A stretch of DNA of 64,000 nt from Patescibacteria group bacterium (GCA_041651155.1 JBAZJU010000003.1:19789-83788); one strand, 5' to 3'; shown: positions 10,967 through 34,702, counted from the stretch's first letter. Program-made: numbers and translations. Notes: generated by a model not told the origin, from the sequence alone.

Positions 10967-11134
10967 TAACCAACCTTTGTTGGCCATAGCCAACTACGGT
11001 TGGCGAAGGCCAATAATCAAATCCCAAATACCAAATAAATTGCAAAATTACAAATCGCAAATTGTTAAGATTTTGGTATTTAGCGCTTGAGATTTATTTG
11101 TAATTTGATATTTGGCATTTGTAATTTTAAAAGT

Positions 11135-12570: not shown

Positions 12571-12681
12571 TTTTTCCTCCTTTGGCTATTTATTTTTTTT
12601 AACTTTATCTTAGCTTAACACGGTAATTTTGTCTCGTCAATTTCAATTGAATTTTAAAGATTTTAATGATAAAATTTGATT

Positions 12682-13197
12682 ATGGATCCCTATATTCAAT
12701 TAGCGCAACAAACTATTTTTAATCATTTTGGCGTAAAGCAAGCCGATTTAGAATCTTTGAATTTGCCTAAAGAAATGTTAACCAAAAAAGCAGGAGTTTT
12801 TGTGACTTTATACCGCCATGGCAAATTGCGCGGTTGTATTGGCACATTAGAGCCAACTAAAAAAAATATTGCAGAGGAAATTAAACAAAACGCAATTTGG
12901 TCAGCTACAGAAGATCCCCGCTTTGAACCTGTAATAGCCAAAGAATTAGAGGATTTAAATATTTCTGTTGATGTTTTAAATCCCTCGGTTGCAATTAAGG
13001 ATATAAAAGAATTAAACCCTAAAAAATATGGCGTTATTGTGGAAGCAGGCAGAAAAAAAGGGTTGCTTTTGCCTGATTTGGAAGGAGTTGAAACAGTTGA
13101 CGAGCAAATAAGTATTGCTTGCGAAAAAGCCGGCATTGATCCTGCAAAAGAAAATTTTTTAGTATATAAATTTACAGTTACCAGACATGAAGCCTAA
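12682..13197 (+). CDS. AMMECR1-domain protein (AmmeMemoRadiSam system protein A)
   Basis: Hallmark LRGCIG motif plus surrounding AMMECR1-like sequence. The ATG at 12682 is preferred over the upstream TTG. Confidence 0.75.
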   Translation: MDPYIQLAQQTIFNHFGVKQADLESLNLPKEMLTKKAGVFVTLYRHGKLRGCIGTLEPTKKNIAEEIKQNAIWSATEDPRFEPVIAKELEDLNISVDVLNPSVAIKDIKELNPKKYGVIVEAGRKKGLLLPDLEGVETVDEQISIACEKAGIDPAKENFLVYKFTVTRHEA

Positions 13198-23667: not shown

Positions 23668-24651
23668 TTAAATAGCCATTTGGAATAATTCCTGATATTT
23701 TTTCAGGAATTCCTTGGCATGATTGCTGGCTCTGGCTGAACTTTCTCTGAGCATTTGGCGCAGGTCTTTTTCAGTCAGCTTGAATTCCCTTTCCTTTTCT
23801 CGGTATGGAGTGAAATATTGCCAAAGTGAAGTAGTCAGGATTTCTTTGCATTGTGTGCAGCTTAATGTTCCGGCCTGGCACTGCTGGTGGATTTTTTCCT
23901 GGCTGGCCATGTCCTTAATTTTGGGCAAAACATAATAAGCGTAAACGCAGCACTTTTTTGGATTGCCAGGATAATTAAGGCCCAATCGCGTGTCATCTGT
24001 CGGCATTTTGAAAACTTTTTTTCTGATCAATTCAAGACCATCAGTTGGACAGATAAAATTTTGGCGCTGACTGCTGGTTCTTTTCCCATCAAAGCCAGGT
24101 ATGGGCGGGACTGGCGGAATGATCACCTGAGGAAAAATAAACTCGCTCACATCCAGCTTTAAATTATGGCACAGATTACGGATAATCTTGTGCGTTAATT
24201 CCACATTGCCAGGAATACTTGAGGTTACAAATGGCGCCTCAAAAATGAGTACGTCTGCAAGTTCCTGGAGCGGATAGCTTAGAATTCCGGCATTGATTAT
24301 TTCTTTGTCCTGCTTTTTCCTTTTGGATACAATGGCTTTTTGCAAAATGTGAACAGGTGTTGCCTGTAAAAGCATTTGAAACATTTGGGCATGCTCAGGC
24401 ACCATGGATTGGGCAAAGATTGTGCTTTGCTCATAGTTTAAACCAGCGCACAGCCAGGATTTGAATATTGTTAATGTATCCTGGATTAAATTATCTGCTT
24501 TGGCAGTCGTCAGGGCTAAACTATTGTAGATGCCGAAAAAACAATCGTATCTTTTTTCCAGCCCAAGCCATTGGTCTATGACCATTAAATGTTTCAAATG
24601 GATAAAGCCAGTTGGCCTCATGCCAGAGAGAAATCTGAATTTTTCGCTCAT
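23668..24651 (-). CDS. Tryptophanyl-tRNA synthetase homolog of the [4Fe-4S]-cluster subfamily with degenerate HIGH (HLKH) and KMSKS (KRTSS) motifs
   Basis: N-terminus FLSGMRPTGFIHLKHL aligns to the Thermotoga-type TrpRS ILSGMRPTGKLHIGHL. The C-terminal C-x22-C-x6-C-x2-C cysteine motif matches the Fe-S TrpRS subfamily. The region around GKRTSS...IRKKVFKMPTDD aligns to GKKMSKS...VRKKVMKMVTD. Confidence 0.65.
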   Translation of the reverse strand: MSEKFRFLSGMRPTGFIHLKHLMVIDQWLGLEKRYDCFFGIYNSLALTTAKADNLIQDTLTIFKSWLCAGLNYEQSTIFAQSMVPEHAQMFQMLLQATPVHILQKAIVSKRKKQDKEIINAGILSYPLQELADVLIFEAPFVTSSIPGNVELTHKIIRNLCHNLKLDVSEFIFPQVIIPPVPPIPGFDGKRTSSQRQNFICPTDGLELIRKKVFKMPTDDTRLGLNYPGNPKKCCVYAYYVLPKIKDMASQEKIHQQCQAGTLSCTQCKEILTTSLWQYFTPYREKEREFKLTEKDLRQMLRESSARASNHAKEFLKKYQELFQMAI

Positions 24652-24751
24652 GATTGCCTCCTTGTCAAATAACCAATTTAATATCTAAATTTAGCGCATA
24701 ATATTGATTTTGTCAAGCTAAACCAATTTGTCGCATCAGGTAAATAACCAC

Positions 24752-24779
24752 TTGACTTTTTACTAAACTATGCTATAGT
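24752..24779 (+). promoter_or_regulatory. Promoter TTGACT-16-TATAGT for the rSAM-tmk-rSAM operon; RBS AAAGGAGAAAAATA-ATG
   Basis: Read directly. Divergent from the TrpRS-like gene, whose own minus-strand TTGACA-17-TAAATT promoter is in the same 167-bp intergenic region. Confidence 0.5.
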
Positions 24780-24818
24780 TTAGTATTCGCTCATTGAAAA
24801 TTTGAAAGGAGAAAAATA

Positions 24819-25817
24819 ATGGAAAGAAAAGTCATTAAACTTGATTTTAATGTTACTAATAGGTGCAATTTTCGTTGCAAACACTGCTGTTTTCGTTCTG
24901 GCGAAGTTAATTTGACAGAACTGCCTTTTGCCATGATTCAATCTGTTTTGACTGAATTCAAGGAATTGGGCGGTCGCAGAATTGACATCACTGGCGGTGA
25001 AGCCACAATGCGCCAAGATTGTTTTCAGATCGTTGAGCTCTGCAAATATCTGGGGTTTAAAACTGAATTAGTGACAAATGGCTCTCTGCTTGATGAAGAA
25101 AAATTGAAGCGCTACAAAGACCTCGGTCTTGATGGCATAGCGATCAGCTTGGATGGATCCAAGTACAAATTCTACAGCCAAATCCGGCCTGTGGCAGAAA
25201 AGATTTACAAAAAAATCCTTAAAAACATTGAACTGGCCGCGAGGTCTGGCTTTTACACCAAAGTCAATACGGTTGTCTTTGATTCCAATCTGCATGATCT
25301 GACGGCAATCACCCGTTTGGCCGTTGTCTTGGGCGCGCGCGAACAGGGCTTCTATTATTTCAGTCCCATTGGCCGAGGTGATTGTTTCACTGCCAATATC
25401 GCTGATCCGCTCAAATGGATGCAGGTGATCAGGCAACTACTGATTGAATTTTACAATAAGATCGAAATCTCCATGGAGACGCCGATCATTGAGTCAGAAT
25501 TCACCAGAAAAATCGATACTCATTGCTACATGGAAAGACCATGGCATTTGCAGATTTTGCCTGATGGCAATGTCTTCCCTTGCGCCATTATGTGCGCGCA
25601 TCAAAAACCATTGGCCAATCTCCATGAGCAAAGTTTGCGGCAAATCTGGGAAAACGAGACACAACTCCAGAAATATTTTGAGCAACAAACTCAGCCCTTA
25701 TTTAAGGACTGGGGTGGCTGCGTCAATTATCCGCAACTGCGAGGTAAAATTGCGAGCAACAAATATTCATTTGTCTGCTTGTGCAAAAAATTCAATCTCA
25801 AGGAATTAACCAGATGA
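24819..25817 (+). CDS. Radical SAM enzyme with C-terminal SPASM-type auxiliary-cluster domain
   Basis: CNFRCKHC (Cx3Cx2C) near the N-terminus. C-terminal Cys-rich SPASM-like region (CYMERP...PCAIMC...GGCVNY...CLC). Confidence 0.7.
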   Translation: MERKVIKLDFNVTNRCNFRCKHCCFRSGEVNLTELPFAMIQSVLTEFKELGGRRIDITGGEATMRQDCFQIVELCKYLGFKTELVTNGSLLDEEKLKRYKDLGLDGIAISLDGSKYKFYSQIRPVAEKIYKKILKNIELAARSGFYTKVNTVVFDSNLHDLTAITRLAVVLGAREQGFYYFSPIGRGDCFTANIADPLKWMQVIRQLLIEFYNKIEISMETPIIESEFTRKIDTHCYMERPWHLQILPDGNVFPCAIMCAHQKPLANLHEQSLRQIWENETQLQKYFEQQTQPLFKDWGGCVNYPQLRGKIASNKYSFVCLCKKFNLKELTR

Positions 25818-26398
25818 AAAGAACAAGAGGAAAACTAATTATTTTTGAAGGCATAAATGCTGCCGGCAAGACGTCTCTGATTCGACTTATTTTAAAGTTA
25901 CAGCCCGATTGGCTTTATTGCAAAGGGCAAGGTGACAAAAATACTTCGTGGGGACGTTTTGCCCGGCGTCATCCTTCAAGCCCCCTGCTTTTAATGGAAT
26001 TGTTAATCACCAATCTGTTAATTGTCAGGCCAGCTTTGAAAACCGGCAAGATTGTCCTGCATGATCGTTATTTTTTTTCAATCATGGCTTTTTATACCGC
26101 GCAAAAATGGTATAACCGGCTATTGGGAAAAATATTCCTGAAATTACTGGTTTTTCCTGACCAGATTTTCCTCGTGGACGTAAACACTGAGGAAGCGCTC
26201 AGGCGCTTAAGAAATGAAGAGCCGAATCAATTCCATCAGCTCTATCTGGCCAATCCCCAAATGATTAATCAGGAAAGAGGTTATTTGTATCAATCCCTGG
26301 AAAATTATCAAAACGTAATTAACATCTCTGGGAAAGATTCAAATAATTTGGCCTTAACAATTTCCGAGAAGATTGGAGGACCAATCAATGACAGCTGA
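25815..26398 (+). CDS. Thymidylate kinase (Tmk)-family P-loop nucleoside-monophosphate kinase
   Basis: The P-loop in LIIFEGINAAGKTS matches Tmk FIVIEGLEGAGKTT. DRY(F) motif (Tmk DRH/DRY). LID-like RRLRNEE. Start codon overlaps the rSAM stop (ATGA) and the stop overlaps the next rSAM start, indicating translational coupling. Confidence 0.6.
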
Positions 26399-27461
26399 AA
26401 ATCAAGAAATTAAGCTTAAAAATATCGGCTGGGGTTTTGGCATCTGCAATATGAAATGTCGCACCTGTTATTCCGCGGCTTGTAAAAAAGCCAGAGAATA
26501 CAGTTTTCTTGAATTAAAGATCGCCGCTGACAAACTTTGTCATGTGATACGATCTATTAATTACGGCACTGGCGAATTCATATTTAATCCTCATGTCACA
26601 AATCTCGCCGAGTATATTGCCTCATGCTATCCCCGCATTGAACAGGCCGTGACCAGCAATGGCACAACCATTATTCTGCTGGGACATGAGCGGCTCAAGC
26701 GCTTGTTTCATGACATAGACATTTCCATTGATTTTCCCAATCCGGAAAAACACAATGAAATGAGGCGCCATCCCAAGGCCTGGCAATGGTCCATGCAGTC
26801 CCTGCAAATTTGCCGGGAGGCCCGCATTGAGACCTCAATCGTCACCTGCATTACCAGCAAAACAAGAGACGAAGATATTATGGATTTTCTGGAGCTGGCC
26901 AGTAAATATGGCACTTCTTGGCGCTGTAGCTGGTTTAGGCAAAAAGGTCGTGGCAAATCCGATCTGCGCATTTTGGCGCCAAGATTCTGGCAGATTATAA
27001 AACTGCTGAGTAAGCATGCGATCTTTGAAGATTTGTCTGAACCAATACTGCAAGGTATGTTTGGCCAAGAAATTGAACGCCCGGGCTGTAATTGCGGTCG
27101 GGCTTCCTGCCGCATTCAGTCCAATGGTCTGGTCGCGCCTTGTACCTTTTTGGGCGGCCCTGAATGGTCAGCTGGTTCTTTGCTGGAACAATCAGTGGAA
27201 GAAATTTACCAGAGTCAGCCCTTTGCCAAGTTAAGAGCAAGGGATGTGCCCTTTTGCCATGATTGCCGCTACTATCCCAAATGCCAAGGCGGCTGTGCTT
27301 CCAGAGCTGTTTTACATTCTGGCGGACTAGATCTCCCTGATGATTTTTGCCCGATTTACAACAAGGTTGAAGTCGACATCAATCCAGGAGATATAAAAGT
27401 GATTAAGACAAATAAAGTTCACAGTGAATATTTGTGTACGACAATCGTACACCCTAAATAA
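26388..27461 (+). CDS. Second radical SAM enzyme with SPASM-type domain
   Basis: GICNMKCRTC (Cx3Cx2C). C-terminal CNCGRASC...PCTFLGG...CHDCRYYPKCQGGC SPASM-like cysteines. RBS GGAGGA before the ATG at 26388. Confidence 0.7.
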   Translation: MTAENQEIKLKNIGWGFGICNMKCRTCYSAACKKAREYSFLELKIAADKLCHVIRSINYGTGEFIFNPHVTNLAEYIASCYPRIEQAVTSNGTTIILLGHERLKRLFHDIDISIDFPNPEKHNEMRRHPKAWQWSMQSLQICREARIETSIVTCITSKTRDEDIMDFLELASKYGTSWRCSWFRQKGRGKSDLRILAPRFWQIIKLLSKHAIFEDLSEPILQGMFGQEIERPGCNCGRASCRIQSNGLVAPCTFLGGPEWSAGSLLEQSVEEIYQSQPFAKLRARDVPFCHDCRYYPKCQGGCASRAVLHSGGLDLPDDFCPIYNKVEVDINPGDIKVIKTNKVHSEYLCTTIVHPK

Positions 27462-27495
27462 AAGAAAAAAGAGTCCCTCGTGGGACTCTTTTATA
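27462..27495. terminator. Bidirectional intrinsic terminator (A-tract-GAGTCCCTCGTGGGACTC-TTTTAT) between the rSAM operon (+) and the MBL/cNMP gene (-)
   Basis: Perfect 8-bp stem flanked by A and T tracts. Confidence 0.55.
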
Positions 27496-27505
27496 ATTGT
27501 ATTAT

Positions 27506-29647
27506 TTATTTTACTTGTTCACTTTTACGCTGCGTAGCCATAATTATCAGTCGACAGCGCACATGCGGTGAATTTTTTATCAGGTTGTCAAAATCCTTAC
27601 GGTTTAATTTCAGGGTTCTGACTCGATCAATGGCAACGACATTGGCTGTTCTAATGCCATCTTGTAAAAGTGCCATTTCCCCAAAGTATTGTCCCGGGAA
27701 AAGAGTGGCTATTTCGCGAACGCCGCCGTTTTCCTCTAACATGACTTTGGCTTTGCCTTCGGTAATGATGTAAAAATCATCGCCTCTTTCGCCCTGAGTT
27801 ACGATATAAGTGTCTGGTTCATGAAGTTCTTCCTGAATCTCCTGGGAGATTTGAATATAGGATGGGGCATCCAGACCCCTGAAAAGGGCAATGTCCATGA
27901 TAATGGGCCGATACTTATGTGTTTTTGCCAATCTCTTAGCCAAAAGTGGTTCTTTGAGTATCCGGTTGGAAATTTCCTTGGGAATTGCTAAGACCCGTAA
28001 AGGACTTCTGGCTTTAATAGTGGCTGTGCAAGGGCAATTTTTTGTGACGGAAAGTTCTCCAAAGAAATCGCCGCTAGACAGCTGGGTGAATTCTTCATTG
28101 TCAATGATGACCAAGGCAGTTCCACCTAAAATGACATAAAACTCTTTGCCCGGGCTACCTTGTTCCAAAATTACGCTGCCAGCTGGGAATTCTTCGATCT
28201 TTCCGCTAGACAAAAGCACGGAAATCCATTGCGGTTCTATGCCGTAGAACAATGGCACTCGAAATAGCGTATTCATGGCTTCCAAGGCCGTGTCCTGGGG
28301 GATAAGTTCCCAAATTTGACCTGTCTTGGGCGTGCAAAATTGCTGGCTGAGCTCAGGTGTTAATTTGGCGCTGTGAGTCAGGACAAGCCGTTTTTTTACC
28401 TCGCTGGGTAATTGAGCAAGTTCGTCTGTCAGCGGATGGATTGTGCCTCCACCGCCATCAAGAAACATCAGATCGCAATCTATTGTGGGAATGCCTTGGA
28501 CGCAAGCCCTAGTTTGTTCATCGATGATTCCCTTTTCTGCCAGTTCCTGAATTTTCTTGCCCCAGGCAGTATCGCCTGAATAGACAATGCTTTTACCTTT
28601 GACTGTGACTTTGAAGCCGATCGTTGGAATCGGGTGTACCGTATTCCAGAAATCGAATTCGGCGCCGTACCAACTGAAAGGTTCATTGACTTTTACTTCA
28701 ATCAGCTTAACGAATTGCTGAACCACATCAACCGGCAGATCGAGAATGTAAGCGGTTTTCAGGAGAAAGCCAGCGAAAACGGTTTTGGTTGTCATAATGC
28801 TGGCCATTTTGGAATTGACCACCATATCCAGGATGGAATTGTGGTCGTCGTGAATGTGGGTAATCAGGAATGCCTCGATTTCGTGAGGATTAATGCCAAA
28901 TTCCCTGCAATGCTCTTTCAGCCAGCTTACACCATCAACAATGATGGGCAGGCCATTTATCCAGATAATCACCCCAGAAGTGTAGTCGCTGGGATCAAAA
29001 CCCGACGTGCATTGGCTCAGGGCCATGGCGCCCAGGATTGATCTCTTGGGCAAATTTTCCGGAGTGATAAGCGGTAAAGGCGGTGTTTGAGGATTGTTCA
29101 GGTTGATGTCAGCGAAATATCCTTCGTCCTGATCTGTGATCTGGAAAACATTTTCCGCGCGCTTGGTAACTAGCATACCGTCAATTTCCACTTTGCCTTT
29201 TGCATCAAACGGTATGAAATTAATCATGTCGTCGAGCGTGGCAATTGAACTGTTTTTGTTATGAAGCGCCAGATAATCAGATATCTTGGAAATGCGCTCA
29301 TATTCTTCATCGCTGATACCGAACTGATCAGCCTCCTGCTTATTGATTCCCAGCAAGGTCAGGCGCAAAATGTTCTTGATCCTTTCCAGCTGTTTTTTTT
29401 CGCCGATCACGGCCAGTTTTTCACCTTTGAAAAATCCGCCGTAGACGAAAAGAAAATCATAAAGTGGAAATTCCAGTGCTGCCTGGTTGATTCCATGCCG
29501 GAAAAAAGTCGAGGGCAGGACAATCCTGTTTGGGACTGTTTTTCCCATCTTTTTGAGAAGTTTGACCACCTCTGAAGGGCAGCCAAGCATAATTCTCCAG
29601 TCATAAATCTGACAACCGGGCATTAATTCAAACAATTTTTGTTCCAT
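27506..29647 (-). CDS. Multidomain protein: N-terminal domain of unknown function, central metallo-beta-lactamase-fold hydrolase (HxHxDH), two C-terminal cyclic-nucleotide-binding (CAP_ED) domains
   Basis: 713 aa. FLITHIHDDHNS carries the HxHxDH MBL metal-binding motif, which resembles the class II cNMP phosphodiesterase HxHLDH. Two cNMP-binding signatures (FFGELSV...TATIKA; GQYFGEMALL...RTANVVA). Confidence 0.65.
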   Translation of the reverse strand: MEQKLFELMPGCQIYDWRIMLGCPSEVVKLLKKMGKTVPNRIVLPSTFFRHGINQAALEFPLYDFLFVYGGFFKGEKLAVIGEKKQLERIKNILRLTLLGINKQEADQFGISDEEYERISKISDYLALHNKNSSIATLDDMINFIPFDAKGKVEIDGMLVTKRAENVFQITDQDEGYFADINLNNPQTPPLPLITPENLPKRSILGAMALSQCTSGFDPSDYTSGVIIWINGLPIIVDGVSWLKEHCREFGINPHEIEAFLITHIHDDHNSILDMVVNSKMASIMTTKTVFAGFLLKTAYILDLPVDVVQQFVKLIEVKVNEPFSWYGAEFDFWNTVHPIPTIGFKVTVKGKSIVYSGDTAWGKKIQELAEKGIIDEQTRACVQGIPTIDCDLMFLDGGGGTIHPLTDELAQLPSEVKKRLVLTHSAKLTPELSQQFCTPKTGQIWELIPQDTALEAMNTLFRVPLFYGIEPQWISVLLSSGKIEEFPAGSVILEQGSPGKEFYVILGGTALVIIDNEEFTQLSSGDFFGELSVTKNCPCTATIKARSPLRVLAIPKEISNRILKEPLLAKRLAKTHKYRPIIMDIALFRGLDAPSYIQISQEIQEELHEPDTYIVTQGERGDDFYIITEGKAKVMLEENGGVREIATLFPGQYFGEMALLQDGIRTANVVAIDRVRTLKLNRKDFDNLIKNSPHVRCRLIIMATQRKSEQVK

Positions 29648-29753
29648 TTTCTTCCTCCTCTCTTAAATTTAAGGAACATTTTAGCTTAACATTTTTCGAT
29701 ATTTTTGTCAATATTTTATTAAAAAAGGAGCTAATCTCTTAGCTCCCTATAGG

Positions 29754-30623
29754 TTAAATTTTTGACTGCGGTTTGGGTTTGATTTTGAATATTTGTGATA
29801 ACCAGGCTAAGCTTAAACTGAAGCAACTTAACAACTTTACAACCAAACAACTTAATAATCCCACATGTTTTTTAAAATAAATTGCCATTCCCCTATTAAA
29901 TCGTTTCTGTTTTTCTAAGCTCATTTGCTGGGCAAAACTTTTAGCTTCGTGATGAATAATTTTTGTTTTTGGCGTATAAATAATTTTCAAGCCTAAATCC
30001 TGAATTTTCATGCATAAATCCAGATCCTCCCACCAGATAAAATAATCAGGATCAAACCCGCCAATTTCTTTAATTACTCCTGTTCTGGCAAACATAAAAG
30101 CTCCCATGATCTGTTTAACTTCCTGTTCTTTTTCATAAATAAAATTTTTGGCTAAATATCTATTTAAACATTTGGTTTGAAAAAAATGATGGAGTTTTAA
30201 AAGAATTAAAAGTTGGTCGCAGAGATTAGGATTATTTTTAATATTTTTTTGTAATGTGCCATCAGGATAAATTAACTGGCAAGTTGAGAGAGCAATTTTT
30301 TCATCCTGTGCCATGAGATCAAACATTACTTTAAAACTATTTTCTATTAATTCAGTATCTGGATTTAAAAATAATACATATTTTCCTTGGGTGTGTTCTA
30401 AGGCCAAATTATTTGCATTGGCAAAACCCAGGTTTTCGTTGGAGGCAATTAAATTAACTTGAGGAAATTGTGATGCCACCATTAACGCTGAGGCATCTTT
30501 GGAAGCATTATCAACCACAAAAACCTCAAATTCTAAACCTTGTGTTTTATCAATGATTGATTGTAAACACTTTCTGAGCAAGTCCTTAACATTCCAAGAG
30601 ACGATGATGATTGATAGTTGCAT
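29754..30623 (-). CDS. Family 2 glycosyltransferase
   Basis: LSIIIVSWNVKD...VVDNASKD...YVLFLNPD (DxD-type) are classic GT2 motifs. Start moved to MQLSIIIV (30623) because the upstream extension is encoded by a repeat element. Confidence 0.65.
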   Translation of the reverse strand: MQLSIIIVSWNVKDLLRKCLQSIIDKTQGLEFEVFVVDNASKDASALMVASQFPQVNLIASNENLGFANANNLALEHTQGKYVLFLNPDTELIENSFKVMFDLMAQDEKIALSTCQLIYPDGTLQKNIKNNPNLCDQLLILLKLHHFFQTKCLNRYLAKNFIYEKEQEVKQIMGAFMFARTGVIKEIGGFDPDYFIWWEDLDLCMKIQDLGLKIIYTPKTKIIHHEAKSFAQQMSLEKQKRFNRGMAIYFKKHVGLLSCLVVKLLSCFSLSLAWLSQIFKIKPKPQSKI

Positions 30624-30645
30624 AGTATAAAAATTTTGTGTAGTT

Positions 30646-30842
30646 AAGGATTCTTCGCTATTAAAGTGGTTGTGTAGGAAATGATTTTTTGTTGCTAGTC
30701 CGCTCTGAATGACGGGGGGGGCGAGCCGAACGCCCTTTGTCATTCAGAGACCCCAACAGGCCGAAGAAAAGGCAAGGATTTATGGATTCAAGGATTCTTC
30801 GCTTGCCCCTTCGGGGCTGACGCTCTGAATGACAGTGGGGGT
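30646..30842. repeat. Cluster of REP/MITE-like palindromic repeat units (CAAGGATTCTTCRCT and CTCTGAATGACRGGGGG...GTCATTCAGAG)
   Basis: Perfect 11-bp inverted repeat CTCTGAATGAC (30704-30714) / GTCATTCAGAG (30739-30749) around a G-rich core. Unit copies at 30646-30659, 30789-30803 and 30824-30842. A related copy lies at 60056-60159. Confidence 0.5.
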
Positions 30843-32078
30843 AAGTTTTTCATTAATTAACTCCAACATTTCCCCTACCCTAATTTGCCAAGTATTATTC
30901 TTTAACATTTCAAATTTTTCCGGCGCTAATCCCTTTTCCTCTTTTAAGGCTTGGTTAACAAAATTATTAAATTCTTCTGGCGATTTGGCGACTTTAATCA
31001 AATTGCCAAAGCGTTCAATCCCTGGTATATAAGTTGAAACTATTGGTAAGCCAGCAGCTAGATATTCATAAAACTTCATGGGATCAGTTGATTTGATAAA
31101 ATCATTAATTTTATAAGGAATAATGCCCACATCAAAGCCATTATAAAGCGCTGGAATATCTTCATATTTTATTGGTCCTAAGAAATGAATATTTTTATAC
31201 TCTTCAAATTTATCCTTGGGAAAGTTTGGCCAAACTGGACCAGCTAAGACAATGGATTTATCTTGATTATTTTTCGCTAAATTTAGCAAAATTTCAGTAT
31301 CAATTCTGTCTTGCAATATTCCGAGAAATCCAATAATTTGTTTTGGGATATTAATTAATTTGGGCGAAACTTCGGATACACTTTGAAAATATTCTAAATC
31401 AACTCCATTGGGTAGCCAAGATACATTGGCCTGATTATTAAATAAATCCTTTTTTAAATTGGCTGAAACAGTGAAAATTAAGTCAGATTTTTCTTGGATT
31501 GTTTGATAATTTTGTTTTAATTTTGATTTGTACGCCTCATAACTTGAATGTTCTGACCAATTATCAACTGCATCAAAGATATTTAATTTTTGGTTAAAAT
31601 TGTCAAAATAATCAATGTACATTGGATTATAATTCCAGGCAATTAGATTATTTTGCATGTTTTCCTTGGCAATAATTTTATTTAGTTCTGTAATGATTCT
31701 ACTTTTATTTAAAACAGAATCAATTGTGGAATAAACTAAAATTTTGCTGGAAATTTGCCAGCATTGTGAAGTCAAATCTCCATAAATAATTGTTCCTCTT
31801 GTATCCTTTAATATCTGATCTGAAAAGTAAGTTTTAATTGCTTTTTTAATGTTAAAAGGCAGAAAATCTACAGTAATGACTTTATTTATTTCATCTCGTT
31901 TAACTAAATTATGTAAAACATGGAAATTGCGATTGACAACTCCTTTTTGCCAGTCGCTGTATTTGGACATGTTGAACATTATTATATTCAGTTTGGGTGG
32001 GTTGATTATGCTCATTATTTTAACTGTGCGTATTTTAGTAAATTTGGAATAAAACGATTGTAAGATATTGTAAGACAA
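30780..32078 (-). CDS. Glycosyltransferase (GT-B fold, GT1/GT4-like C-terminal domain); C-terminal 14 codons run into the repeat element
   Basis: C-terminal EYLAAGLPIVSTYIPGIERF is a typical GT-B nucleotide-sugar binding motif. The N-terminal domain is unassigned. True start may be an internal Met. Confidence 0.5.
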   Translation of the reverse strand: MSYNILQSFYSKFTKIRTVKIMSIINPPKLNIIMFNMSKYSDWQKGVVNRNFHVLHNLVKRDEINKVITVDFLPFNIKKAIKTYFSDQILKDTRGTIIYGDLTSQCWQISSKILVYSTIDSVLNKSRIITELNKIIAKENMQNNLIAWNYNPMYIDYFDNFNQKLNIFDAVDNWSEHSSYEAYKSKLKQNYQTIQEKSDLIFTVSANLKKDLFNNQANVSWLPNGVDLEYFQSVSEVSPKLINIPKQIIGFLGILQDRIDTEILLNLAKNNQDKSIVLAGPVWPNFPKDKFEEYKNIHFLGPIKYEDIPALYNGFDVGIIPYKINDFIKSTDPMKFYEYLAAGLPIVSTYIPGIERFGNLIKVAKSPEEFNNFVNQALKEEKGLAPEKFEMLKNNTWQIRVGEMLELINEKLTPTVIQSVSPEGASEESLNP

Positions 32079-32117
32079 TTGTTTTACAGCAATATTACAA
32101 TTGTCTTACTAAATCGT

Positions 32118-33230
32118 CTAAATAATATTCTTGAGCTTGTCGATTTGCTGATACCAATTAAATTCAGATAAAACGCGTTGTCTGCCCTGAACACCTAATT
32201 TGTTCGCTAGCTCCGGGTCGTTAAAGAGCTTTAAAATTGCCTGGTTAATTTCCTGGACACTTTCTGGGTTCACTAAAATTCCGGTTTGGTTATCTATGAC
32301 TGCGTCTTCCGCTCCCCCGCTTTTGCCAGCAATCACTGGTTTGCCAAATAAATTAGCTTCCAGATAAACAATACCAAAGCCCTCTATGTCTTCGCCTATT
32401 TGGCGCGCTGGCATGATAAAGATATTGGCTAAACTATAAAAGGCAGGGAGATTTGAATTGGGTATGTCTTCAGCAATTATTAAATTCCCTCTGACTTTTA
32501 AATCCTCGGCTAGTTTTTCTAATCTTTCTCTGTCAGGGCCATTGCCAACAATTATATAGATTAAGTTGGGTATTTGCTTAGTTAATTCTGGTAATGCTTC
32601 AATAACTTTATCAAAACCTTTTCTGGGCACTAAACGACCTACAGAAAGCAGTATTTTTTTATGATGTAAATCCAGCTCATTTTTAATAATTTGCATTTCA
32701 TGTTCGTTGAATTGTTCAAGTTGTAAATTTGGACAAGGATAGACAATTGTTATTTTATTTTGTTTAATCCCCAAATTCAATACTTGATTTTCTGTATTAT
32801 GGCTATTAACAATAATATGTTTGGCCTGAGTTAATATTTTTACTGCCCAGTATTTTTTCCAGCTTGATTTTTGGGCATTCATTATGTCATAGCCGTGCAA
32901 AATAACAATGTATGGCAATTTAAGCATTAACGCAATATAGCCCATTGGTAAAATATGGCTAATTACAATTTGTTCAATTTTAGATTTTTTGATTATAGGT
33001 TTAGCCGCCAAATATGTTTTTAACCAGCGTGGCCAAAAATATTTAGATAATAATTGTGCCCTGATAATTTTATAAGGCTGCTTGTTATCAAAATGCTGGC
33101 TTTGCTCGTGATTATTAGCTAAAACTAAAAGATTGCCTGGTGGAAAATTTTTGCTTAAATTAGCCAAATAATTTGCTACGCCTCCAATTTGCGGTGGGAA
33201 ATCAATTGTTATTAATAATGATTTTTTCAT
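32118..33230 (-). CDS. Family 4 glycosyltransferase (GT-B)
   Basis: 370 aa. EGFGIVYLEANLFGKPVIAGKSGGAEDAV is the GT4 E-x7-E motif region. Confidence 0.7.
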   Translation of the reverse strand: MKKSLLITIDFPPQIGGVANYLANLSKNFPPGNLLVLANNHEQSQHFDNKQPYKIIRAQLLSKYFWPRWLKTYLAAKPIIKKSKIEQIVISHILPMGYIALMLKLPYIVILHGYDIMNAQKSSWKKYWAVKILTQAKHIIVNSHNTENQVLNLGIKQNKITIVYPCPNLQLEQFNEHEMQIIKNELDLHHKKILLSVGRLVPRKGFDKVIEALPELTKQIPNLIYIIVGNGPDRERLEKLAEDLKVRGNLIIAEDIPNSNLPAFYSLANIFIMPARQIGEDIEGFGIVYLEANLFGKPVIAGKSGGAEDAVIDNQTGILVNPESVQEINQAILKLFNDPELANKLGVQGRQRVLSEFNWYQQIDKLKNII

Positions 33231-34702
33231 ACATTTTCTTCTAAAGTTTCTTCCGGGGGTAAAATTACATTCTTTTTAAAAATAGCTTGCCACAAATATT
33301 TTAGATCGTCTTTGCCAAAGCCTTTAAGCAGATAAAGAATTATTGTGTAAATAAAAGCGCTTATAATAATTAGGATTATAAAATTTATATGCTCTTTGGT
33401 GTAAATTATAAATATTGCCATAAATACTGATGCCAGAAGAGCTTTGATTGATTTAATAGTAAGAAATTTAAAGTCATACTTAATTATTTTTGGAACCCAA
33501 ATTAAATTCAAAATAAACAGCAGGCTCAGGCTGATTAAGGTAGCGATTGAAGCGCCGATTTGCTGGTATTTGGGAATTAAAATCAGATGAAGAATTATAT
33601 CTATAACCATGATAATTCCCATGTTGGTCGTATTTACAGTTTGTTTATCACAGGCATTTAATAATGAGCCGACCGGATAAGATAGGAATAAGGCAATGAT
33701 TGCAAAAATCAAAATTTTTAAGGTTAAAATAGATGGTTGATAACCAGAGCCATACAGGCCTAAAATTATTTTGTCAGCTAATGATCCCAGGCCAAAAGCA
33801 ATCGGTAAAGCGATAATAATTAAGAAAAACATTGATTTTTCAAAAATTATTTTTAGCTTTGACTGATCATTGGCAAAGGCAGCGCTCATGGCCGGATAAA
33901 TAGCTGCAGCAAAAGAGGCCGGTAAAAAGATAAAAGCATAAGTTATTTTATAGGCCACTGAATACCAGCCTACTGCTTGATCGCTGATTAAAATAGACAG
34001 TAAAACTTGGTCTATAAATGTGTAGACTCTGGTAAAAATCGCGGCCAGGGCAAAAGGAAAAGCAATTTTTAATAATAACTTTACAATGCTTTTATTCCAC
34101 TGGAAACTAAATTTAAAATGTAATTTAACCTTTAATAAAATGAAAGAATATATAAAGCTGAAAGAACTGCCGGCCAAAAGCGCAAAAACTAAGATGTAGA
34201 GGGGAAATTTTAAAAAAACACCAATTAAGCCAACCAAGACAATTAAAAGTTGGTTTATAGTAATGCTTATCGCCTCGTATTTTAAATTTTGATAAGCGCG
34301 GAAAATTGCCCAAAAGCTAAGGGTAAAAGAATCAATAATCATAATCACGCCTGCCAAATAAACCATTGTTAAGGTAATTTGTGACTTATTTAAGAGGTTA
34401 ATTATTACAATTGCGGCTAAATATGTCAGGACTGCTAATAAAATTTTAATTGATAATACATTATTTAAATATTCATTTGCCTTATTTTTGTCTTTGGCAG
34501 ATTCCCTGATTAAGACCTGAGTTAAACCGAAATCAATAAAAACAGACAAAATAGTAGTAAAGGATATGGCAAAAACATATAGCCCGATATTATCGGCGCC
34601 AAGAAATCTGGCGATTAAGGTAAAATAAATAAAAGCAAATATTTTCTGGAAAATATAGGCGCTAGTTAATAAAGTTGTATTTTTGGCAATATTTTGTTGC
34701 AT
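33227..34702 (-). CDS. Polysaccharide/O-unit flippase (Wzx-like, MOP superfamily)
   Basis: 491 aa with about 12-14 hydrophobic helices. Overlaps the downstream GT start by 4 nt (operon). Position is typical of wzx. Confidence 0.6.
   Translation of the reverse strand: MQQNIAKNTTLLTSAYIFQKIFAFIYFTLIARFLGADNIGLYVFAISFTTILSVFIDFGLTQVLIRESAKDKNKANEYLNNVLSIKILLAVLTYLAAIVIINLLNKSQITLTMVYLAGVIMIIDSFTLSFWAIFRAYQNLKYEAISITINQLLIVLVGLIGVFLKFPLYILVFALLAGSSFSFIYSFILLKVKLHFKFSFQWNKSIVKLLLKIAFPFALAAIFTRVYTFIDQVLLSILISDQAVGWYSVAYKITYAFIFLPASFAAAIYPAMSAAFANDQSKLKIIFEKSMFFLIIIALPIAFGLGSLADKIILGLYGSGYQPSILTLKILIFAIIALFLSYPVGSLLNACDKQTVNTTNMGIIMVIDIILHLILIPKYQQIGASIATLISLSLLFILNLIWVPKIIKYDFKFLTIKSIKALLASVFMAIFIIYTKEHINFIILIIISAFIYTIILYLLKGFGKDDLKYLWQAIFKKNVILPPEETLEENV

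What the first reader, a model, noticed from the sequence alone, without database searches (positions are those of the whole stretch)
27506..29647. 713-aa fusion of an MBL-fold hydrolase (HxHxDH) with two cyclic-nucleotide-binding domains and an unassigned approx 270-aa N-terminal domain
The central motif ITHIHDDH is the metallo-beta-lactamase binuclear-metal signature. It resembles class II 3',5'-cNMP phosphodiesterases (HxHLDH). Two complete CAP_ED-type cNMP-binding modules follow (FFGELSV...; GQYFGEMALL...). A hydrolase directly fused to two cNMP sensors suggests an allosterically (cNMP-)gated phosphodiesterase or nuclease. That would be an unusual self-regulating signalling module for a reduced genome. 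No nucleotide cyclase is evident in the window. It lies convergent to the rSAM operon, sharing a bidirectional terminator.
Basis: partly seen in the sequence, partly recalled or inferred. Interest (0 to 1): 0.6.

Follow-up and report, generated by a model that had tools for sequence, protein, structure and literature searches.

The report
Cyclic-nucleotide-stimulated phosphodiesterase, GbpA/GbpB family
This gene from a tiny-genome (Patescibacteria) bacterium encodes a bacterial relative of the slime-mould enzymes GbpA/GbpB, which destroy cAMP or cGMP faster when those molecules bind their own sensor domains; the design is already known and widespread, so the find is real but fairly ordinary.

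Summary
The 713-aa ORF at 27506-29647 (-) is real. It has its own promoter-like site and ribosome-binding site, and terminator-like hairpins flank it on both sides. Its layout is a conserved N-terminal domain (about aa 1-185), a proline-rich linker, a metallo-beta-lactamase (MBL) hydrolase (about aa 204-450) and two cyclic-nucleotide-binding (CNB) domains. All MBL metal ligands are present and are invariant in at least 187 of 188 relatives.

The architecture is not new. The protein is homologous along its length to the dictyostelid GbpB/PdeE-type enzyme (BLASTP E 2e-43; family profile E 1e-102). GbpA and GbpB are "class IIb" MBL phosphodiesterases activated by cNMP binding to two downstream CNB domains. 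The family has at least 557 clusters at 50% identity, in Spirochaetota, Myxococcota and many eukaryotes. It is rare in Patescibacteria, where the gene lies in a GC3-rich five-gene block.

The closest solved catalytic relatives are the Apyc1/YhfI cNMP phosphodiesterases, not nucleases.

Three points are new:
- The "unassigned" N-terminal domain folds like a degenerate MBL half (structural evidence only).
- CNB-A has Cys in place of the phosphate-binding Arg, while CNB-B is canonical. The distant clade shows the reverse pattern.
- The gene is often, but not always, next to a radical-SAM/kinase module restricted to Patescibacteria.

No cyclase is present in the window.

Verdict: new member of a known kind, of modest interest.

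The parts
27506..29647 (-). Complete ORF, 713 aa plus TAA stop; GbpA/GbpB-family cNMP phosphodiesterase
   Evidence: ORF list. Translation. An identical protein, P0001, is named 'cyclic nucleotide-binding domain-containing protein [Patescibacteria group bacterium]'. AF2 model: pLDDT 90.9, pTM 0.90.
29093..29647 (-). Conserved N-terminal domain (aa 1-185) with no metal-binding motif; probably a degenerate MBL-like half
   Evidence: Conserved across the family: G11, P24, K29, P39, E59, F60, F67 and G100 are invariant. Aligns with the dictyostelid GbpB ortholog (query 19-180). Domain model pLDDT 88.4. Foldseek PDB top hits are all MBL-fold (1zkp E 2.4e-4, Apyc1 7u2r/7u2s, YhfI 6kns, ELAC2), TMq about 0.41. 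There is no sequence-level signal: hhalign probability 0.4%, and no PDB sequence hit.
29039..29092 (-). Proline-rich linker (aa 186-203, PQTPPLPLITPENLPKRS)
   Evidence: No regular secondary structure at aa 181-204 in the model. Sequence.
28298..29038 (-). Metallo-beta-lactamase-fold catalytic domain (aa 204-450)
   Evidence: PF12706 E 1.8e-5, PF23023 Apyc1 and NF041851 cNMP-degrading PDE, all weak. The family profile against the PDB gives Apyc1 7u2r E 2.3e-10, 7u2s, YhfI 6kns and 1zkp. BLASTP against the Cavenderia GbpB-type PDE gives E 2e-43.
28841..28858 (-). HxHxDH metal-binding motif (H264, H266, D268, H269)
   Evidence: Translation. Present in 187-188 of 188 family members.
28373..28636 (-). 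Span from the H425 codon to the H338 codon; it holds the remaining conserved MBL positions H338 (nt 28634-28636), D359 (28571-28573), H404 (28436-28438) and H425 (28373-28375). Motif-1 D218 lies outside this span, at 28994-28996
   Evidence: Each is conserved in at least 187 of 188 members, and D218 in 185 of 188. H404 and H425 align with the GxVH and LxH motifs of Apyc1. Which of them coordinate metal is inferred from conservation and from the MBL family pattern.
27932..28285 (-). CNB-A domain (aa 455-572). The phosphate-binding cassette FGELSVTKNCPCTAT (nt 28019-28063) has Glu531 but Cys540 at the Arg position
   Evidence: PF00027. PKA-R/PKG alignment. Cys occupies this position in 40 of 50 relatives with at least 34% identity, against Arg in 120 of 138 distant relatives and in the dictyostelid protein.
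27548..27916 (-). CNB-B domain (aa 578-700). Canonical phosphate-binding cassette FGEMALLQDGIRTAN (nt 27641-27685) with Glu657, Arg666, Thr667 and Ala668
   Evidence: PF00027 best stretch at aa 610-692. Arg is present in 49 of 50 and Glu in 50 of 50 near relatives. The site is degenerate in the distant clade, with Arg in 9 of 138.
27467..27492 (.). Terminator-like hairpin (11-bp stem, 4-nt loop) with A-run and T-run flanks, between the convergent PDE and rSAM genes
   Evidence: Scan and sequence. Terminator function is inferred.
29654..29711 (-). Own expression signals: TTGACA at 29706-29711, TG-extended TAAGCT, and an AGGAGG Shine-Dalgarno at 29654-29659
   Evidence: Read directly from the upstream sequence. 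A terminator-like hairpin of the upstream GT2 gene at 29725-29748 suggests a monocistronic unit. The promoter is not experimentally supported.
24819..27461 (+). Frequently linked neighbour module: rSAM/SPASM (24819-25817), dTMP-kinase-like (25781-26398) and rSAM/SPASM (26373-27461), with overlapping reading frames. The functional link to the PDE is unproven
   Evidence: Pfam and NCBIfam. Adjacent and convergent to PDE homologs in L001, L002, L003, L004, L009, L011, L012 and L091. Absent next to the PDE in L005 and L008. Present without a PDE in L092 and L093.

Best explanation
The gene encodes a cytoplasmic, substrate-stimulated 3',5'-cyclic-nucleotide phosphodiesterase of the GbpA/GbpB (PdeD/PdeE, 'class IIb') family.

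Shown:
- A catalytically intact binuclear-metal MBL domain, with HxHxDH plus H338, D359, H404 and H425.
- Two PKA-R-like CNB domains follow it.
- A conserved N-terminal domain precedes it.
- The whole arrangement is homologous to a dictyostelid GbpB-type enzyme.

Inferred by homology:
- The MBL site hydrolyses cAMP and/or cGMP to the 5'-NMP.
- Rising cNMP binds the C-terminal sensor and raises catalytic activity. In this clade the binding site is essentially CNB-B, the only one with the Glu/Arg cassette. This gives feed-forward, switch-like clearance of the messenger.
- CNB-A (Arg replaced by Cys) probably acts as a non-binding or low-affinity relay between CNB-B and the catalytic domain.
- The N-terminal domain, which looks like a metal-free MBL half, probably stands in for the second subunit that stand-alone relatives (Apyc1, YhfI, RNase Z) provide by homodimerising. 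Long RNase Z (ELAC2) is built this way.

The gene is transcribed on its own. It sits in a GC3-rich block that was probably acquired horizontally by a Falkowbacteria/Parcubacteria lineage.
For: - Architecture.
- Metal ligands conserved in at least 187 of 188 members.
- The N-terminal + MBL profile hits Cavenderia fasciculata 'cAMP/cGMP-stimulated cAMP/cGMP phosphodiesterase' (XP_004358696) at E 1.1e-102.
- Direct BLASTP gives E 2e-43 with 28% identity over query 19-429, and the CNB region gives E 7e-11.
- Literature: in GbpA/GbpB an MBL catalytic domain is activated by cNMP binding to two downstream CNB domains; GbpA is cGMP-specific and GbpB prefers cAMP (PMC11988041; PMC8684759).
- The nearest solved catalytic relatives are Apyc1 and YhfI. 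These are Zn2+ homodimeric cNMP phosphodiesterases, and YhfI prefers cAMP/cGMP (PMC9117128).
- Bacterial relatives are named 'cAMP/cGMP-dependent 3',5'-cyclic-AMP/GMP phosphodiesterase' by NCBI.
- Rosetta-stone and context links to cNMP synthesis: the Chloropicon homolog is fused to two PF00211 cyclase domains, and in L010 the homolog is followed on the same strand by a histidine kinase, a receiver and a HisKA-receiver-cyclase gene.
- The canonical CNB-B cassette is conserved in 49 of 50 near relatives.
- The high pTM of 0.90 indicates a defined packing between domains.
- N-terminal domain fold hits.
Against: - No biochemical data exist for any bacterial member that I could find.
- The single-sequence MBL scores are below the Pfam cutoffs.
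- No cyclase is present in the 64-kb window, and I could not check the rest of the genome. The source of the substrate is therefore unknown.
- CNB-A lacks the phosphate-binding Arg, so regulation may differ from the dictyostelid enzymes, whose ortholog keeps both Arg residues.
- Substrate specificity cannot be read from the sequence.
- The MBL-like nature of the N-terminal domain rests on modest Foldseek scores (TMq about 0.41, E about 1e-4). It has no sequence support and only a non-significant hit in BFVD.
- I could not inspect model coordinates to see how the CNB domains contact the active site.
Confidence: 0.8

Rival explanations
1. Nucleotide-salvage or host-signal-scavenging enzyme with a re-tuned sensor. 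In Patescibacteria the PDE would work with the neighbouring rSAM/kinase (nucleotide-metabolism-like) genes. It would turn cyclic or other unusual nucleotides, possibly host-derived, into 5'-NMPs for salvage. The Cys-substituted CNB-A would sense a ligand other than a cNMP, such as a nucleoside, a 5'-NMP or a product of the rSAM/kinase pair.
For: - The PDE and the rSAM pair are adjacent and convergent in at least 8 fetched loci. At least 5 of these are independent contexts, going down to 42% PDE identity, and the rSAM genes have diverged in parallel to 40-50%.
- The rSAM2 family is small and nearly restricted to Patescibacteria.
- In L093 the rSAM and kinase genes are followed by a nucleoside phosphorylase and a pyrophosphatase. 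PNP and PRTase genes lie near the PDE in L004 and L008.
- No cyclase is present in the window.
- Cys replaces the PBC Arg in 40 of 50 near relatives.
- Trypanosome PKA-R proteins are a precedent. PDB titles describe them as cAMP-independent and bound to inosine or guanosine, and a T318R-containing triple mutant was solved (6h4g, 6hyi, 6hyq). That the wild-type cassette lacks the Arg is my recollection.
Against: - The linkage is not obligatory. The PDE occurs without the rSAM genes (L005, L008) and the rSAM/kinase genes occur without the PDE (L092, L093).
- The genes are convergent and so are not co-transcribed.
- The Cys-type CNB-A also occurs in relatives from non-CPR lineages. P0069 is named Deltaproteobacteria and lies in the identity band where Cys dominates. 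P0044 lies in that band too and sits beside a cyclase. I did not read the CNB-A residue of either protein individually.
- CNB-B remains a canonical cNMP site.
- That CPR bacteria depend on salvage is general knowledge and was not tested here.
Confidence: 0.09
2. Apyc1-like regulator or antagonist of cNMP-based immune signalling. The enzyme would degrade cCMP/cUMP or other Pycsar/CBASS-type signals, either its own or those of the host bacterium of this presumed episymbiont.
For: - Apyc1 structures are the best PDB sequence matches.
- Precomputed PF23023 hits are on record throughout the family.
- The Apyc1 paper raises the possibility that host Apyc1 homologs regulate Pycsar or other cNMP signalling (PMC9117128).
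- The gene lies in a compositionally foreign block.
- PADLOC reports similarity between the CNB region and the PycTIR and PycC models.
Against: - PF23023 scores 16 bits against a cutoff of 50.
- The PADLOC hits cover only the generic CNB domain, aa 601-712.
- No Pycsar cyclase, effector or phage genes lie nearby.
- The demonstrated relatives, GbpA and GbpB, act on cGMP and cAMP.
- YhfI-type relatives prefer cAMP/cGMP, and broad specificity is described as specific to Apyc1.
Confidence: 0.06
3. cNMP-gated nuclease: the MBL domain cleaves RNA or DNA (RNase Z / RNase J / CPSF73-like) under control of the CNB domains.
For: - The family profile also matches CPSF73 (E 3.5e-8), RNase J (E 4e-6) and RNase Z.
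- NCBIfam RNase Z and RNase J models give weak hits.
- The fold hits for the N-terminal domain include ELAC2.
Against: - These matches are weaker than those to Apyc1 and YhfI, and they cover only the generic MBL core.
- No beta-CASP, RMMBL or RNase Z exosite domain is present.
- RNase Z and RNase J scores are far below their cutoffs: 14.7 against 293, and 17.8 against 820.
- Full-length homology is to an enzyme family with demonstrated cNMP PDE activity.
Confidence: 0.04

Closest known systems
Dictyostelid GbpA (PdeD/PDE5) and GbpB (PdeE/PDE6): 'class IIb' cNMP-stimulated cNMP phosphodiesterases
   Same: - The order of parts is the same: conserved N-terminal domain, MBL catalytic domain, two CNB domains.
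- Direct homology to the Cavenderia fasciculata GbpB-type protein: BLASTP E 2e-43 over the N-terminal domain plus MBL, the CNB region also aligned, and profile E 1e-102.
- All metal ligands are shared.
- The literature describes activation by cNMP binding to the two downstream domains.
   Different: - The window protein is compact (713 aa, against 1105 aa for the Cavenderia protein). It lacks the long N-terminal extension and the low-complexity inserts.
- Identity is only about 28%.
- CNB-A has Cys at the Arg position, whereas the dictyostelid ortholog has Arg in both cassettes.
- The organism is a Patescibacteria bacterium with no cyclase in view.
- No enzymology exists for this protein.
Bacterial clade-2 homologs (Spirochaetota/Leptospirales, FCPU426, Myxococcota and others) named 'cAMP/cGMP-dependent 3',5'-cyclic-AMP/GMP phosphodiesterase'
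   Same: - Same length (about 713-725 aa) and the same four-domain architecture.
- 24-30% identity over the full length.
- The N-terminal domain and the MBL ligands are conserved.
   Different: - The sensor degeneracy is reversed. Clade 2 keeps Arg in CNB-A (120 of 138) and has lost the Glu/Arg of CNB-B, with Arg in only 9 of 138.
- The rSAM/kinase neighbours are absent.
- The genomes are larger. One clade-1 relative (L010) sits next to a cyclase.
Apyc1 (anti-Pycsar) and B. subtilis YhfI stand-alone MBL cNMP phosphodiesterases (PDB 7u2r, 7u2s, 6kns, 1zkp, 7t28)
   Same: - They are the best solved-structure matches for the catalytic domain, E 2e-10 to 2e-8.
- They share the HxHxDH di-zinc chemistry acting on 3',5'-cNMPs.
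- They are also the best fold matches for the N-terminal domain.
   Different: - They are proteins of about 250 aa that work as homodimers and have no sensor domains.
- The window protein scores far below the PF23023 cutoff, 16 against 50 bits.
- It carries an extra degenerate N-terminal domain and two CNB domains.
PKA regulatory subunit / PKG tandem CNB-A/B module
   Same: - The C-terminal 260 aa align with the tandem CNB domains of PKA RI-alpha and PKG (phmmer E 1e-29 to 1e-31; Foldseek E about 1e-21).
- CNB-B has the canonical FGE...RTA cassette.
   Different: - The module regulates a fused hydrolase rather than a kinase.
- CNB-A lacks the Arg, which recalls the trypanosome PKA-R proteins that PDB titles describe as cAMP-independent and nucleoside-bound.
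Long-form tRNase Z (ELAC2): a tandem of one degenerate and one active MBL domain
   Same: The possible design principle is shared: an inactive MBL-like N-terminal half precedes an active MBL half in one chain. ELAC2 structures are among the fold hits of the N-terminal domain (8z1f, 9ey0, 8z0p).
   Different: - This is a resemblance of design only.
- The fold scores are modest and there is no sequence similarity.
- The substrate differs (tRNA 3' ends), and ELAC2 has no CNB domains.

Membership tests
GbpA/GbpB-type ('class IIb') cNMP-stimulated MBL phosphodiesterases | MBL catalytic domain with HxHxDH and the full set of downstream His/Asp metal ligands | tested here: met
   H264, H266, D268, H269, H338, D359, H404 and H425 are present, and each is conserved in at least 187 of 188 members, including the dictyostelid protein.
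GbpA/GbpB-type ('class IIb') cNMP-stimulated MBL phosphodiesterases | Two cNMP-binding domains located C-terminal to the catalytic domain | tested here: met
   PF00027 twice, E 1.3e-38. The tandem resembles PKA-R/PKG. The architecture is as described in PMC11988041.
GbpA/GbpB-type ('class IIb') cNMP-stimulated MBL phosphodiesterases | Significant sequence homology to a dictyostelid member beyond the generic domains | tested here: met
   The Cavenderia fasciculata cAMP/cGMP-stimulated PDE gives profile E 1.1e-102 (name). BLASTP gives E 2e-43 over query 19-429, which includes the family-specific N-terminal domain. D. discoideum GbpA and GbpB themselves could not be retrieved.
GbpA/GbpB-type ('class IIb') cNMP-stimulated MBL phosphodiesterases | Hydrolysis of cAMP/cGMP, and stimulation of that activity by cNMP | not testable with these tools
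   Needs an enzyme assay. Inferred from homology only.
GbpA/GbpB-type ('class IIb') cNMP-stimulated MBL phosphodiesterases | Canonical Glu/Arg phosphate-binding cassette in both CNB domains (as in the dictyostelid ortholog) | tested here: not met
   CNB-B has E657 and R666. CNB-A has E531 but C540. The Cavenderia protein has Arg and Glu in both. This is a feature of the reference protein rather than a strict family definition, because most bacterial members have one degenerate site.
Classical class II (IIa) cNMP phosphodiesterases (Pfam PF02112; yeast PDE1, Vibrio CpdP, Dictyostelium PdsA) | Match to the PF02112 profile | tested here: not met
   PF02112 is not among the Pfam hits at E <= 1.
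Apyc1 / YhfI stand-alone MBL cNMP phosphodiesterases (PF23023, NF041851) | Score above the curated family cutoff, and a single-domain protein of about 250 aa | tested here: not met
   PF23023 scores 16.1 bits against a cutoff of 50. NF041851 scores 24.3 against 400. The protein has four domains and 713 aa. These proteins are still the closest solved relatives.
beta-CASP / RNase J / RNase Z MBL nucleases | beta-CASP and RMMBL domains, or an RNase Z model above cutoff | tested here: not met
   No PF10996 or PF07521 hit. TIGR02651 scores 14.7 against 293, and RNase J1 scores 17.8 against 820.
CAP_ED / PKA-R-type cNMP-binding domains | Beta-barrel CNB fold with a phosphate-binding cassette containing the conserved Gly-Glu and Arg | tested here: met
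   Met fully for CNB-B (G656, E657, R666, T667, A668). CNB-A has the fold and G530-E531 but lacks the Arg, having C540 instead.
Pycsar or other anti-phage defence systems (PADLOC) | Match to a defence protein model over its defining (effector or cyclase) domain, with partner genes nearby | tested here: not met
   The hits to PycTIR, TIR effectors and PycC cover only aa 601-712, the CNB domain. The neighbours hit pVip models only over the radical-SAM core. No partner genes are present.
Tandem degenerate-plus-active MBL proteins (ELAC2-like design) | The N-terminal domain adopts an MBL fold without metal ligands | tested here: inconclusive
   - Foldseek top hits are all MBL proteins (E 2.4e-4 to 1e-3, probability 1.00, TMq about 0.41).
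- The order of secondary-structure elements parallels the catalytic domain.
- The BFVD top hit is an MBL protein but is not significant, E 0.16.
- hhalign probability is 0.4%, and there is no PDB sequence hit.

The most novel reading that the evidence does not exclude
In the Patescibacteria/clade-1 branch the GbpA/B-type enzyme may have been repurposed. It would have one true cNMP site (CNB-B). CNB-A, whose phosphate-binding Arg is replaced by a conserved Cys, would bind a different ligand, such as a nucleoside, a 5'-NMP or a product of the adjacent rSAM/SPASM-kinase genes. The enzyme would then serve nucleotide salvage or interception of host cyclic-nucleotide signals in an episymbiont that makes no cNMP of its own. 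As a secondary point, the family core would be an intramolecular pseudo-dimer of a dead and a live MBL domain, which has not, to my knowledge, been described for GbpA/GbpB.
Probability: 0.12. Interest if true: 0.65.

Novelty: new member of a known kind. Interest (0 to 1): 0.3.

Why it matters
If the assignment holds, it shows three things.

- The "unusual" Dictyostelium cGMP/cAMP-stimulated phosphodiesterases belong to a large and mostly unstudied family that is bacterial as well as eukaryotic. The family has at least 557 clusters at 50% identity.
- The compact 713-aa bacterial form models with high confidence, which makes it a candidate for a first experimental structure and for allosteric studies of the class.
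- It places a cNMP-signalling component in a Patescibacteria genome where no cyclase is in view. This makes one question testable: do such reduced, host-dependent bacteria make cNMPs themselves, or do they read or consume those of their hosts?

The reciprocal loss of one of the two sensor sites in different clades is a natural experiment on which CNB domain transmits activation.

None of this overturns current knowledge. The architecture and the likely mechanism are already established.

Tried and rejected
- Foldseek of the full model against the PDB returned only PKA-R/PKG CNB tandems, which says nothing about the catalytic part.
- hhalign of the N-terminal domain against the catalytic domain (probability 0.4%) and the N-terminal domain profile against PDB sequences (no hits) gave no sequence support for an internal duplication.
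- A BFVD search of the N-terminal domain gave a top hit to an MBL protein, but it was not significant.
- The primary Dictyostelium papers (PMC133600, PMC124474, PMC1783984) are not held. The D. discoideum GbpA and GbpB sequences could not be fetched, so I used the Cavenderia ortholog instead.
- NCBIfam has no model for this family. The NCBI name on some bacterial homologs does not come from an NCBIfam HMM.
- Literature searches found no characterised bacterial member and nothing on cNMP signalling in Patescibacteria.
- PADLOC gave hits only through generic domains, so I rejected the defence-system reading.
- tblastn with two cyclase domains against 90 loci found cyclases near the PDE only in L010 and L054. 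This screen has low sensitivity and I do not use it as a frequency estimate.
- I considered a pseudoenzyme and rejected it, because all metal ligands are invariant.
- I considered a classical class II PDE and rejected it, because PF02112 gives no hit.
- I could not search the rest of this genome for cyclases, and I could not inspect model coordinates for CNB-to-active-site contacts.


Full report
**1. Observation**

The window holds one uninterrupted ORF on the minus strand, 27506-29647, ATG to TAA, 713 aa. An identical protein is on record as [quoted passage not shown] on a 126.8-kb contig.

The nearest genome representatives are a Candidatus Falkowbacteria MAG and a Candidatus Parcubacteria MAG, at 80-81% identity.

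HIHDDH is at aa 264-269 (nt 28841-28858).

Pfam finds two cNMP-binding domains (PF00027, E 1.3e-38). The MBL hits are weak and below threshold: PF12706 scores 24.9 bits against a cutoff of 27, PF00753 scores 16.4 against 22.7, and PF23023 (Apyc1) scores 16.1 against 50. PF02112 gives no hit.

NCBIfam adds a faint match to "cyclic nucleotide-degrading phosphodiesterase" (NF041851, E 1.7e-5).

The C-terminal 260 aa align with the tandem CNB-A/B of PKA RI-alpha and PKG (E about 1e-29 to 1e-31; Foldseek E about 1e-21).

**2. Anatomy**

An AlphaFold2 model built on a 23-sequence family alignment is confident throughout (pLDDT 90.9, pTM 0.90). The boundaries it gives are:

| Part | Residues |
|---|---|
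| N-terminal domain | 1-185 |
| Proline-rich linker | 186-203 |
| MBL domain | 204-450 |
| CNB-A | 455-572 |
| CNB-B | 578-700 |
| C-terminal helix | to 713 |

In an alignment of 188 family members, H264, D268, H269, H404 and H425 are invariant. H266, H338 and D359 are present in 187 of 188, and motif-1 D218 in 185 of 188. This is a catalytically competent MBL and not a pseudoenzyme.

**3. Expression unit**

The 44-nt gap to the convergent rSAM gene holds an 11-bp-stem hairpin at 27467-27492, flanked by an A run and a T run.

Upstream, the GT2 gene ends with its own hairpin at 29725-29748. The remaining 77 nt hold a perfect TTGACA (29706-29711), a TG-extended TAAGCT and an AGGAGG six nucleotides before the ATG.

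The gene therefore looks monocistronic. The promoter and terminators are inferred from sequence only.

**4. What family it belongs to**

I recalled that Dictyostelium GbpA/PdeD and GbpB/PdeE combine an MBL-type catalytic domain with two CNB domains. A 2025 review confirms it. [quoted passage not shown] A second paper describes GbpA as the cGMP-stimulated cGMP-specific PDE of the stmF locus (PMC8684759).

I tested homology rather than assuming it. I made a profile of only the N-terminal and MBL parts (alignment A2), so that the common CNB domains could not drive hits, and searched it exhaustively against 1.84 billion representatives. It found 557 clusters at E <= 1e-30 and 1259 at E <= 1e-10.

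One hit, P0239 (E 1.1e-102), is the Cavenderia fasciculata (a dictyostelid) "cAMP/cGMP-stimulated cAMP/cGMP phosphodiesterase", XP_004358696. Direct BLASTP of the window protein against it gives E 2e-43 with 28% identity over query residues 19-429. That stretch covers the N-terminal domain and the MBL domain. The CNB region also aligns (E 7e-11).

The window protein is thus a full-length homolog of a GbpB-type enzyme. Other eukaryotic members come from:
- Chlorokybus and Mesostigma
- Batrachochytrium
- Aplanochytrium
- Rhodelphis
- Pavlova
- Chloropicon, where the module is fused to two class III cyclase domains

In bacteria the same architecture of about 715 aa is common. There are at least 561 hits in the word-indexed search and 382 relatives among GTDB species representatives. 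Among the best 80 loci listed, most are Spirochaetota/Leptospirales, with FCPU426, Myxococcota, Deltaproteobacteria, Planctomycetota and others also present. Some carry the NCBI name "cAMP/cGMP-dependent 3',5'-cyclic-AMP/GMP phosphodiesterase". No NCBIfam model accounts for that name.

**5. What the catalytic domain is closest to**

The profile of the catalytic domain alone was searched against PDB sequences. The best matches were:
- Apyc1: 7u2r at E 2.3e-10 and 7u2s at E 1.8e-9
- B. subtilis YhfI (6kns)
- 1zkp
- 7t28

CPSF73, RNase J and RNase Z come further down.

The Apyc1 paper describes Apyc1, YhfI, yeast PDE1 and RNase Z as homodimers whose HxHxDH motif holds two Zn2+ ions. It shows that Apyc1 cleaves cyclic mononucleotides and that YhfI prefers cAMP/cGMP (PMC9117128).

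There is no beta-CASP or RMMBL domain, and the nuclease models score far below their cutoffs. This supports a cNMP phosphodiesterase over a nuclease.

**6. The N-terminal domain**

It is conserved across bacteria and eukaryotes and has no Pfam match. Modelled alone, it gives pLDDT 88.4.

Evidence for an MBL-like fold:
- Its Foldseek hits in the PDB are almost all MBL-fold proteins, and the top ones are the same proteins that best match the catalytic domain. These are 1zkp (E 2.4e-4), Apyc1 7u2r and 7u2s, YhfI, then PhnP-like proteins, RNase Z and ELAC2. Probability is 1.00 for the best hits and TMq is about 0.41.
- The order of secondary-structure elements (three strands, helix, strand, helix, strand, helices, five strands) parallels that of the catalytic domain.
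- Where the catalytic domain has HxHxDH, the N-terminal domain has the invariant E59-F60 and no His/Asp cluster.

Evidence lacking:
- Sequence methods see nothing. hhalign probability is 0.4% and there is no PDB sequence hit.
- The BFVD top hit is an MBL protein but is not significant.

I read the domain as a probable degenerate MBL-like half that may replace the dimer partner of the stand-alone enzymes, as in long RNase Z. My confidence in this is about 0.6, and it rests on structure prediction alone.

**7. The sensors**

In CNB-B the cassette FGEMALLQDGIRTAN has the canonical Gly-Glu and Arg-Thr-Ala (E657, R666).

In CNB-A the cassette FGELSVTKNCPCTAT has E531 but Cys540 exactly nine residues later, where the phosphate-binding Arg should be.

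This is a clade property:

| Group | CNB-A Arg position | CNB-B |
|---|---|---|
| Relatives with at least 34% identity (n = 50) | Cys in 40, Arg in 2 | Arg in 49, Glu in 50 |
| Distant clade (n = 138) | Arg in 120 | Arg in 9, Glu in 24 |
| Dictyostelid protein | Arg and Glu | Arg and Glu |

Each bacterial clade has kept one canonical site, but a different one. For this protein the likely cNMP sensor is CNB-B. CNB-A is then either a relay or binds something else.

Trypanosome PKA-R structures offer a precedent. Their PDB titles call them cAMP-independent and show them bound to inosine or guanosine (6hyi, 6hyq). A triple mutant that includes T318R was also solved (6h4g). That their wild-type cassettes lack the Arg is my recollection, not a tool result. 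Base specificity (cAMP or cGMP) cannot be read from the cassette.

**8. Context**

No ORF of at least 120 aa in the 64 kb has a cyclase domain. Eleven ORFs have no Pfam match. I could not examine the rest of the genome.

The five genes from 23668 to 29647 are a TrpRS, an rSAM/SPASM, a dTMP-kinase-like protein, a second rSAM/SPASM and the PDE. They form a compositional island: mean GC3 is 0.46 against 0.32 +/- 0.05 for the other 44 genes. The same excess over the flanks holds in relatives (L001, L002).

The PDE lies convergent to the rSAM pair in the following loci:
- L001 and L011 (76-80% identity)
- L002 and L003 (82%)
- L012
- L004 (42%)
- L009 (42%, without the kinase)
- L091

In L004 and L009 the rSAM genes have diverged to 40-50% identity.

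The association is not obligatory. L005 and L008 have the PDE without the rSAM genes. L092 and L093 have the rSAM and kinase genes without a PDE, and in L093 they are followed by a nucleoside phosphorylase and a pyrophosphatase. The clade-2 loci lack the rSAM genes.

The rSAM2 family is small, about 40 clusters, and nearly restricted to Patescibacteria.

Most Patescibacteria-type loci also place the PDE beside glycan-synthesis genes (window, L002, L005, L008, L009).

One clade-1 relative in a larger genome (L010) is followed on the same strand by a hybrid histidine kinase, a receiver and a HisKA-receiver-cyclase gene. This is a direct contextual link to cNMP synthesis.

PADLOC gives no real defence-system match.

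**9. Mechanism (most likely)**

Shown: an intact MBL active site, two CNB domains, a shared N-terminal domain and homology to a GbpB-type enzyme.

Inferred:
- The enzyme hydrolyses cAMP and/or cGMP to the 5'-NMP.
- cNMP binding, here mainly at CNB-B, increases activity. This gives feed-forward clearance of the messenger, as in Dictyostelium.
- The N-terminal domain completes the catalytic core as a pseudo-dimer partner.

Confidence that it is a cNMP-regulated cNMP phosphodiesterase is about 0.8.

Rivals:
- A re-tuned salvage or host-signal enzyme linked to the rSAM/kinase module: about 0.09.
- An Apyc1-like modulator of immune cNMP signals: about 0.06.
- A cNMP-gated nuclease: about 0.04.

**10. 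Novelty and verdict**

The architecture, the family and the probable mechanism are known. Bacterial homologs are numerous, and some are already named after the Dictyostelium enzyme. This is a new member of a known kind.

Four things are mildly new:
- Its presence in Patescibacteria inside a foreign-looking block.
- The Cys-for-Arg CNB-A, together with the reciprocal degeneration of the sensor sites between clades.
- The MBL-like N-terminal domain.
- The frequent linkage to a Patescibacteria-restricted rSAM/kinase module.

I found no biochemical study of any bacterial member. The compact bacterial form would be a useful experimental model.

Interest: 0.3.

Noticed in passing
window 23668-29647: Five consecutive genes form a GC3-rich island: a TrpRS, an rSAM/SPASM, a dTMP-kinase-like protein, a second rSAM/SPASM and the PDE. 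Mean GC3 is 0.46 against 0.32 +/- 0.05 for the other 44 genes. The same block is GC3-richer than its flanks in related genomes (L001, L002), which suggests a horizontally moving cassette.
   Followed up: partly
window 24819-27461 (+): An rSAM/SPASM, dTMP-kinase-like, rSAM/SPASM trio has overlapping reading frames (37-nt and 26-nt overlaps). No specific NCBIfam family reaches its cutoff; the best generic hits are NirJ2, AhbD, MoaA and viperin over the rSAM core. The rSAM2 family has only about 40 clusters, nearly all from Patescibacteria. In L093 the rSAM and kinase genes are followed by a nucleoside phosphorylase and a pyrophosphatase. Function is unknown and may relate to nucleotides.
   Followed up: partly
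window 23668-24651 (-): The TrpRS gene scores below the NCBIfam trpS cutoff (139 against 176.75 bits). It travels with the rSAM/PDE block in L001, L002, L003, L011 and L012 (69-83% identity). I did not check whether it is the housekeeping TrpRS or a second copy.
   Followed up: no
family alignment; query aa 540 and 666 (nt 28028-28030 and 27650-27652): The two sensor sites degenerate reciprocally between clades. In the query clade the CNB-A Arg is replaced by Cys (40 of 50) and CNB-B is intact (49 of 50). In the distant clade CNB-A is intact (120 of 138) and CNB-B has lost its Arg and Glu. The dictyostelid ortholog keeps both.
   Followed up: yes
P0300 (Chloropicon roscoffensis, 2113 aa); L010 16039-18090: A prasinophyte protein fuses two class III cyclase domains to the N-terminal domain + MBL + CNB module. 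In a bacterial locus the PDE homolog is followed on the same strand by a histidine kinase, a receiver and a HisKA-receiver-cyclase gene. In both cases synthesis and breakdown of the messenger are linked.
   Followed up: partly
window 29754-34702; L002, L005, L008, L009: In most Patescibacteria-type loci the PDE gene sits next to surface-glycan genes (GT2, GT4, a Wzx-type flippase, sugar epimerases and dehydrogenases). This could be a functional link, or it could simply be a variable, transfer-prone region.
   Followed up: no
P0249 (2403 aa, Omnitrophota), P0260 (2196 aa), P0251 (2179 aa): Some bacterial and unassigned family members are very long multi-domain proteins that embed the N-terminal domain + MBL module far from the N terminus. 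Their other domains were not examined.
   Followed up: no
window 2047-3063 (+), 11087-11923 (+), 12676-13197 (+): A LigB/Memo-like protein and an AMMECR1 protein are near-neighbours, and a radical SAM activase-like gene lies 8 kb away. From memory, this resembles the uncharacterised 'AmmeMemoRadiSam' trio. I did not test this.
   Followed up: no
window 7417-8496 (-) and 58064-58531 (-): Two ORFs without Pfam matches have outlying composition: GC 0.268 for the 359-aa ORF and GC 0.474 for the 155-aa ORF, against 0.36 for the window. Nine further ORFs of at least 120 aa also lack Pfam matches.
   Followed up: no
L001 792-2231 (-) and 17343-17927 (+): The Falkowbacteria relative's locus also carries a beta-CASP MBL nuclease (RNase J-like) and a small Lactamase_B_3 protein within 10 kb of the PDE. 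These are unrelated MBL paralogs that could confuse automatic annotation.
   Followed up: no
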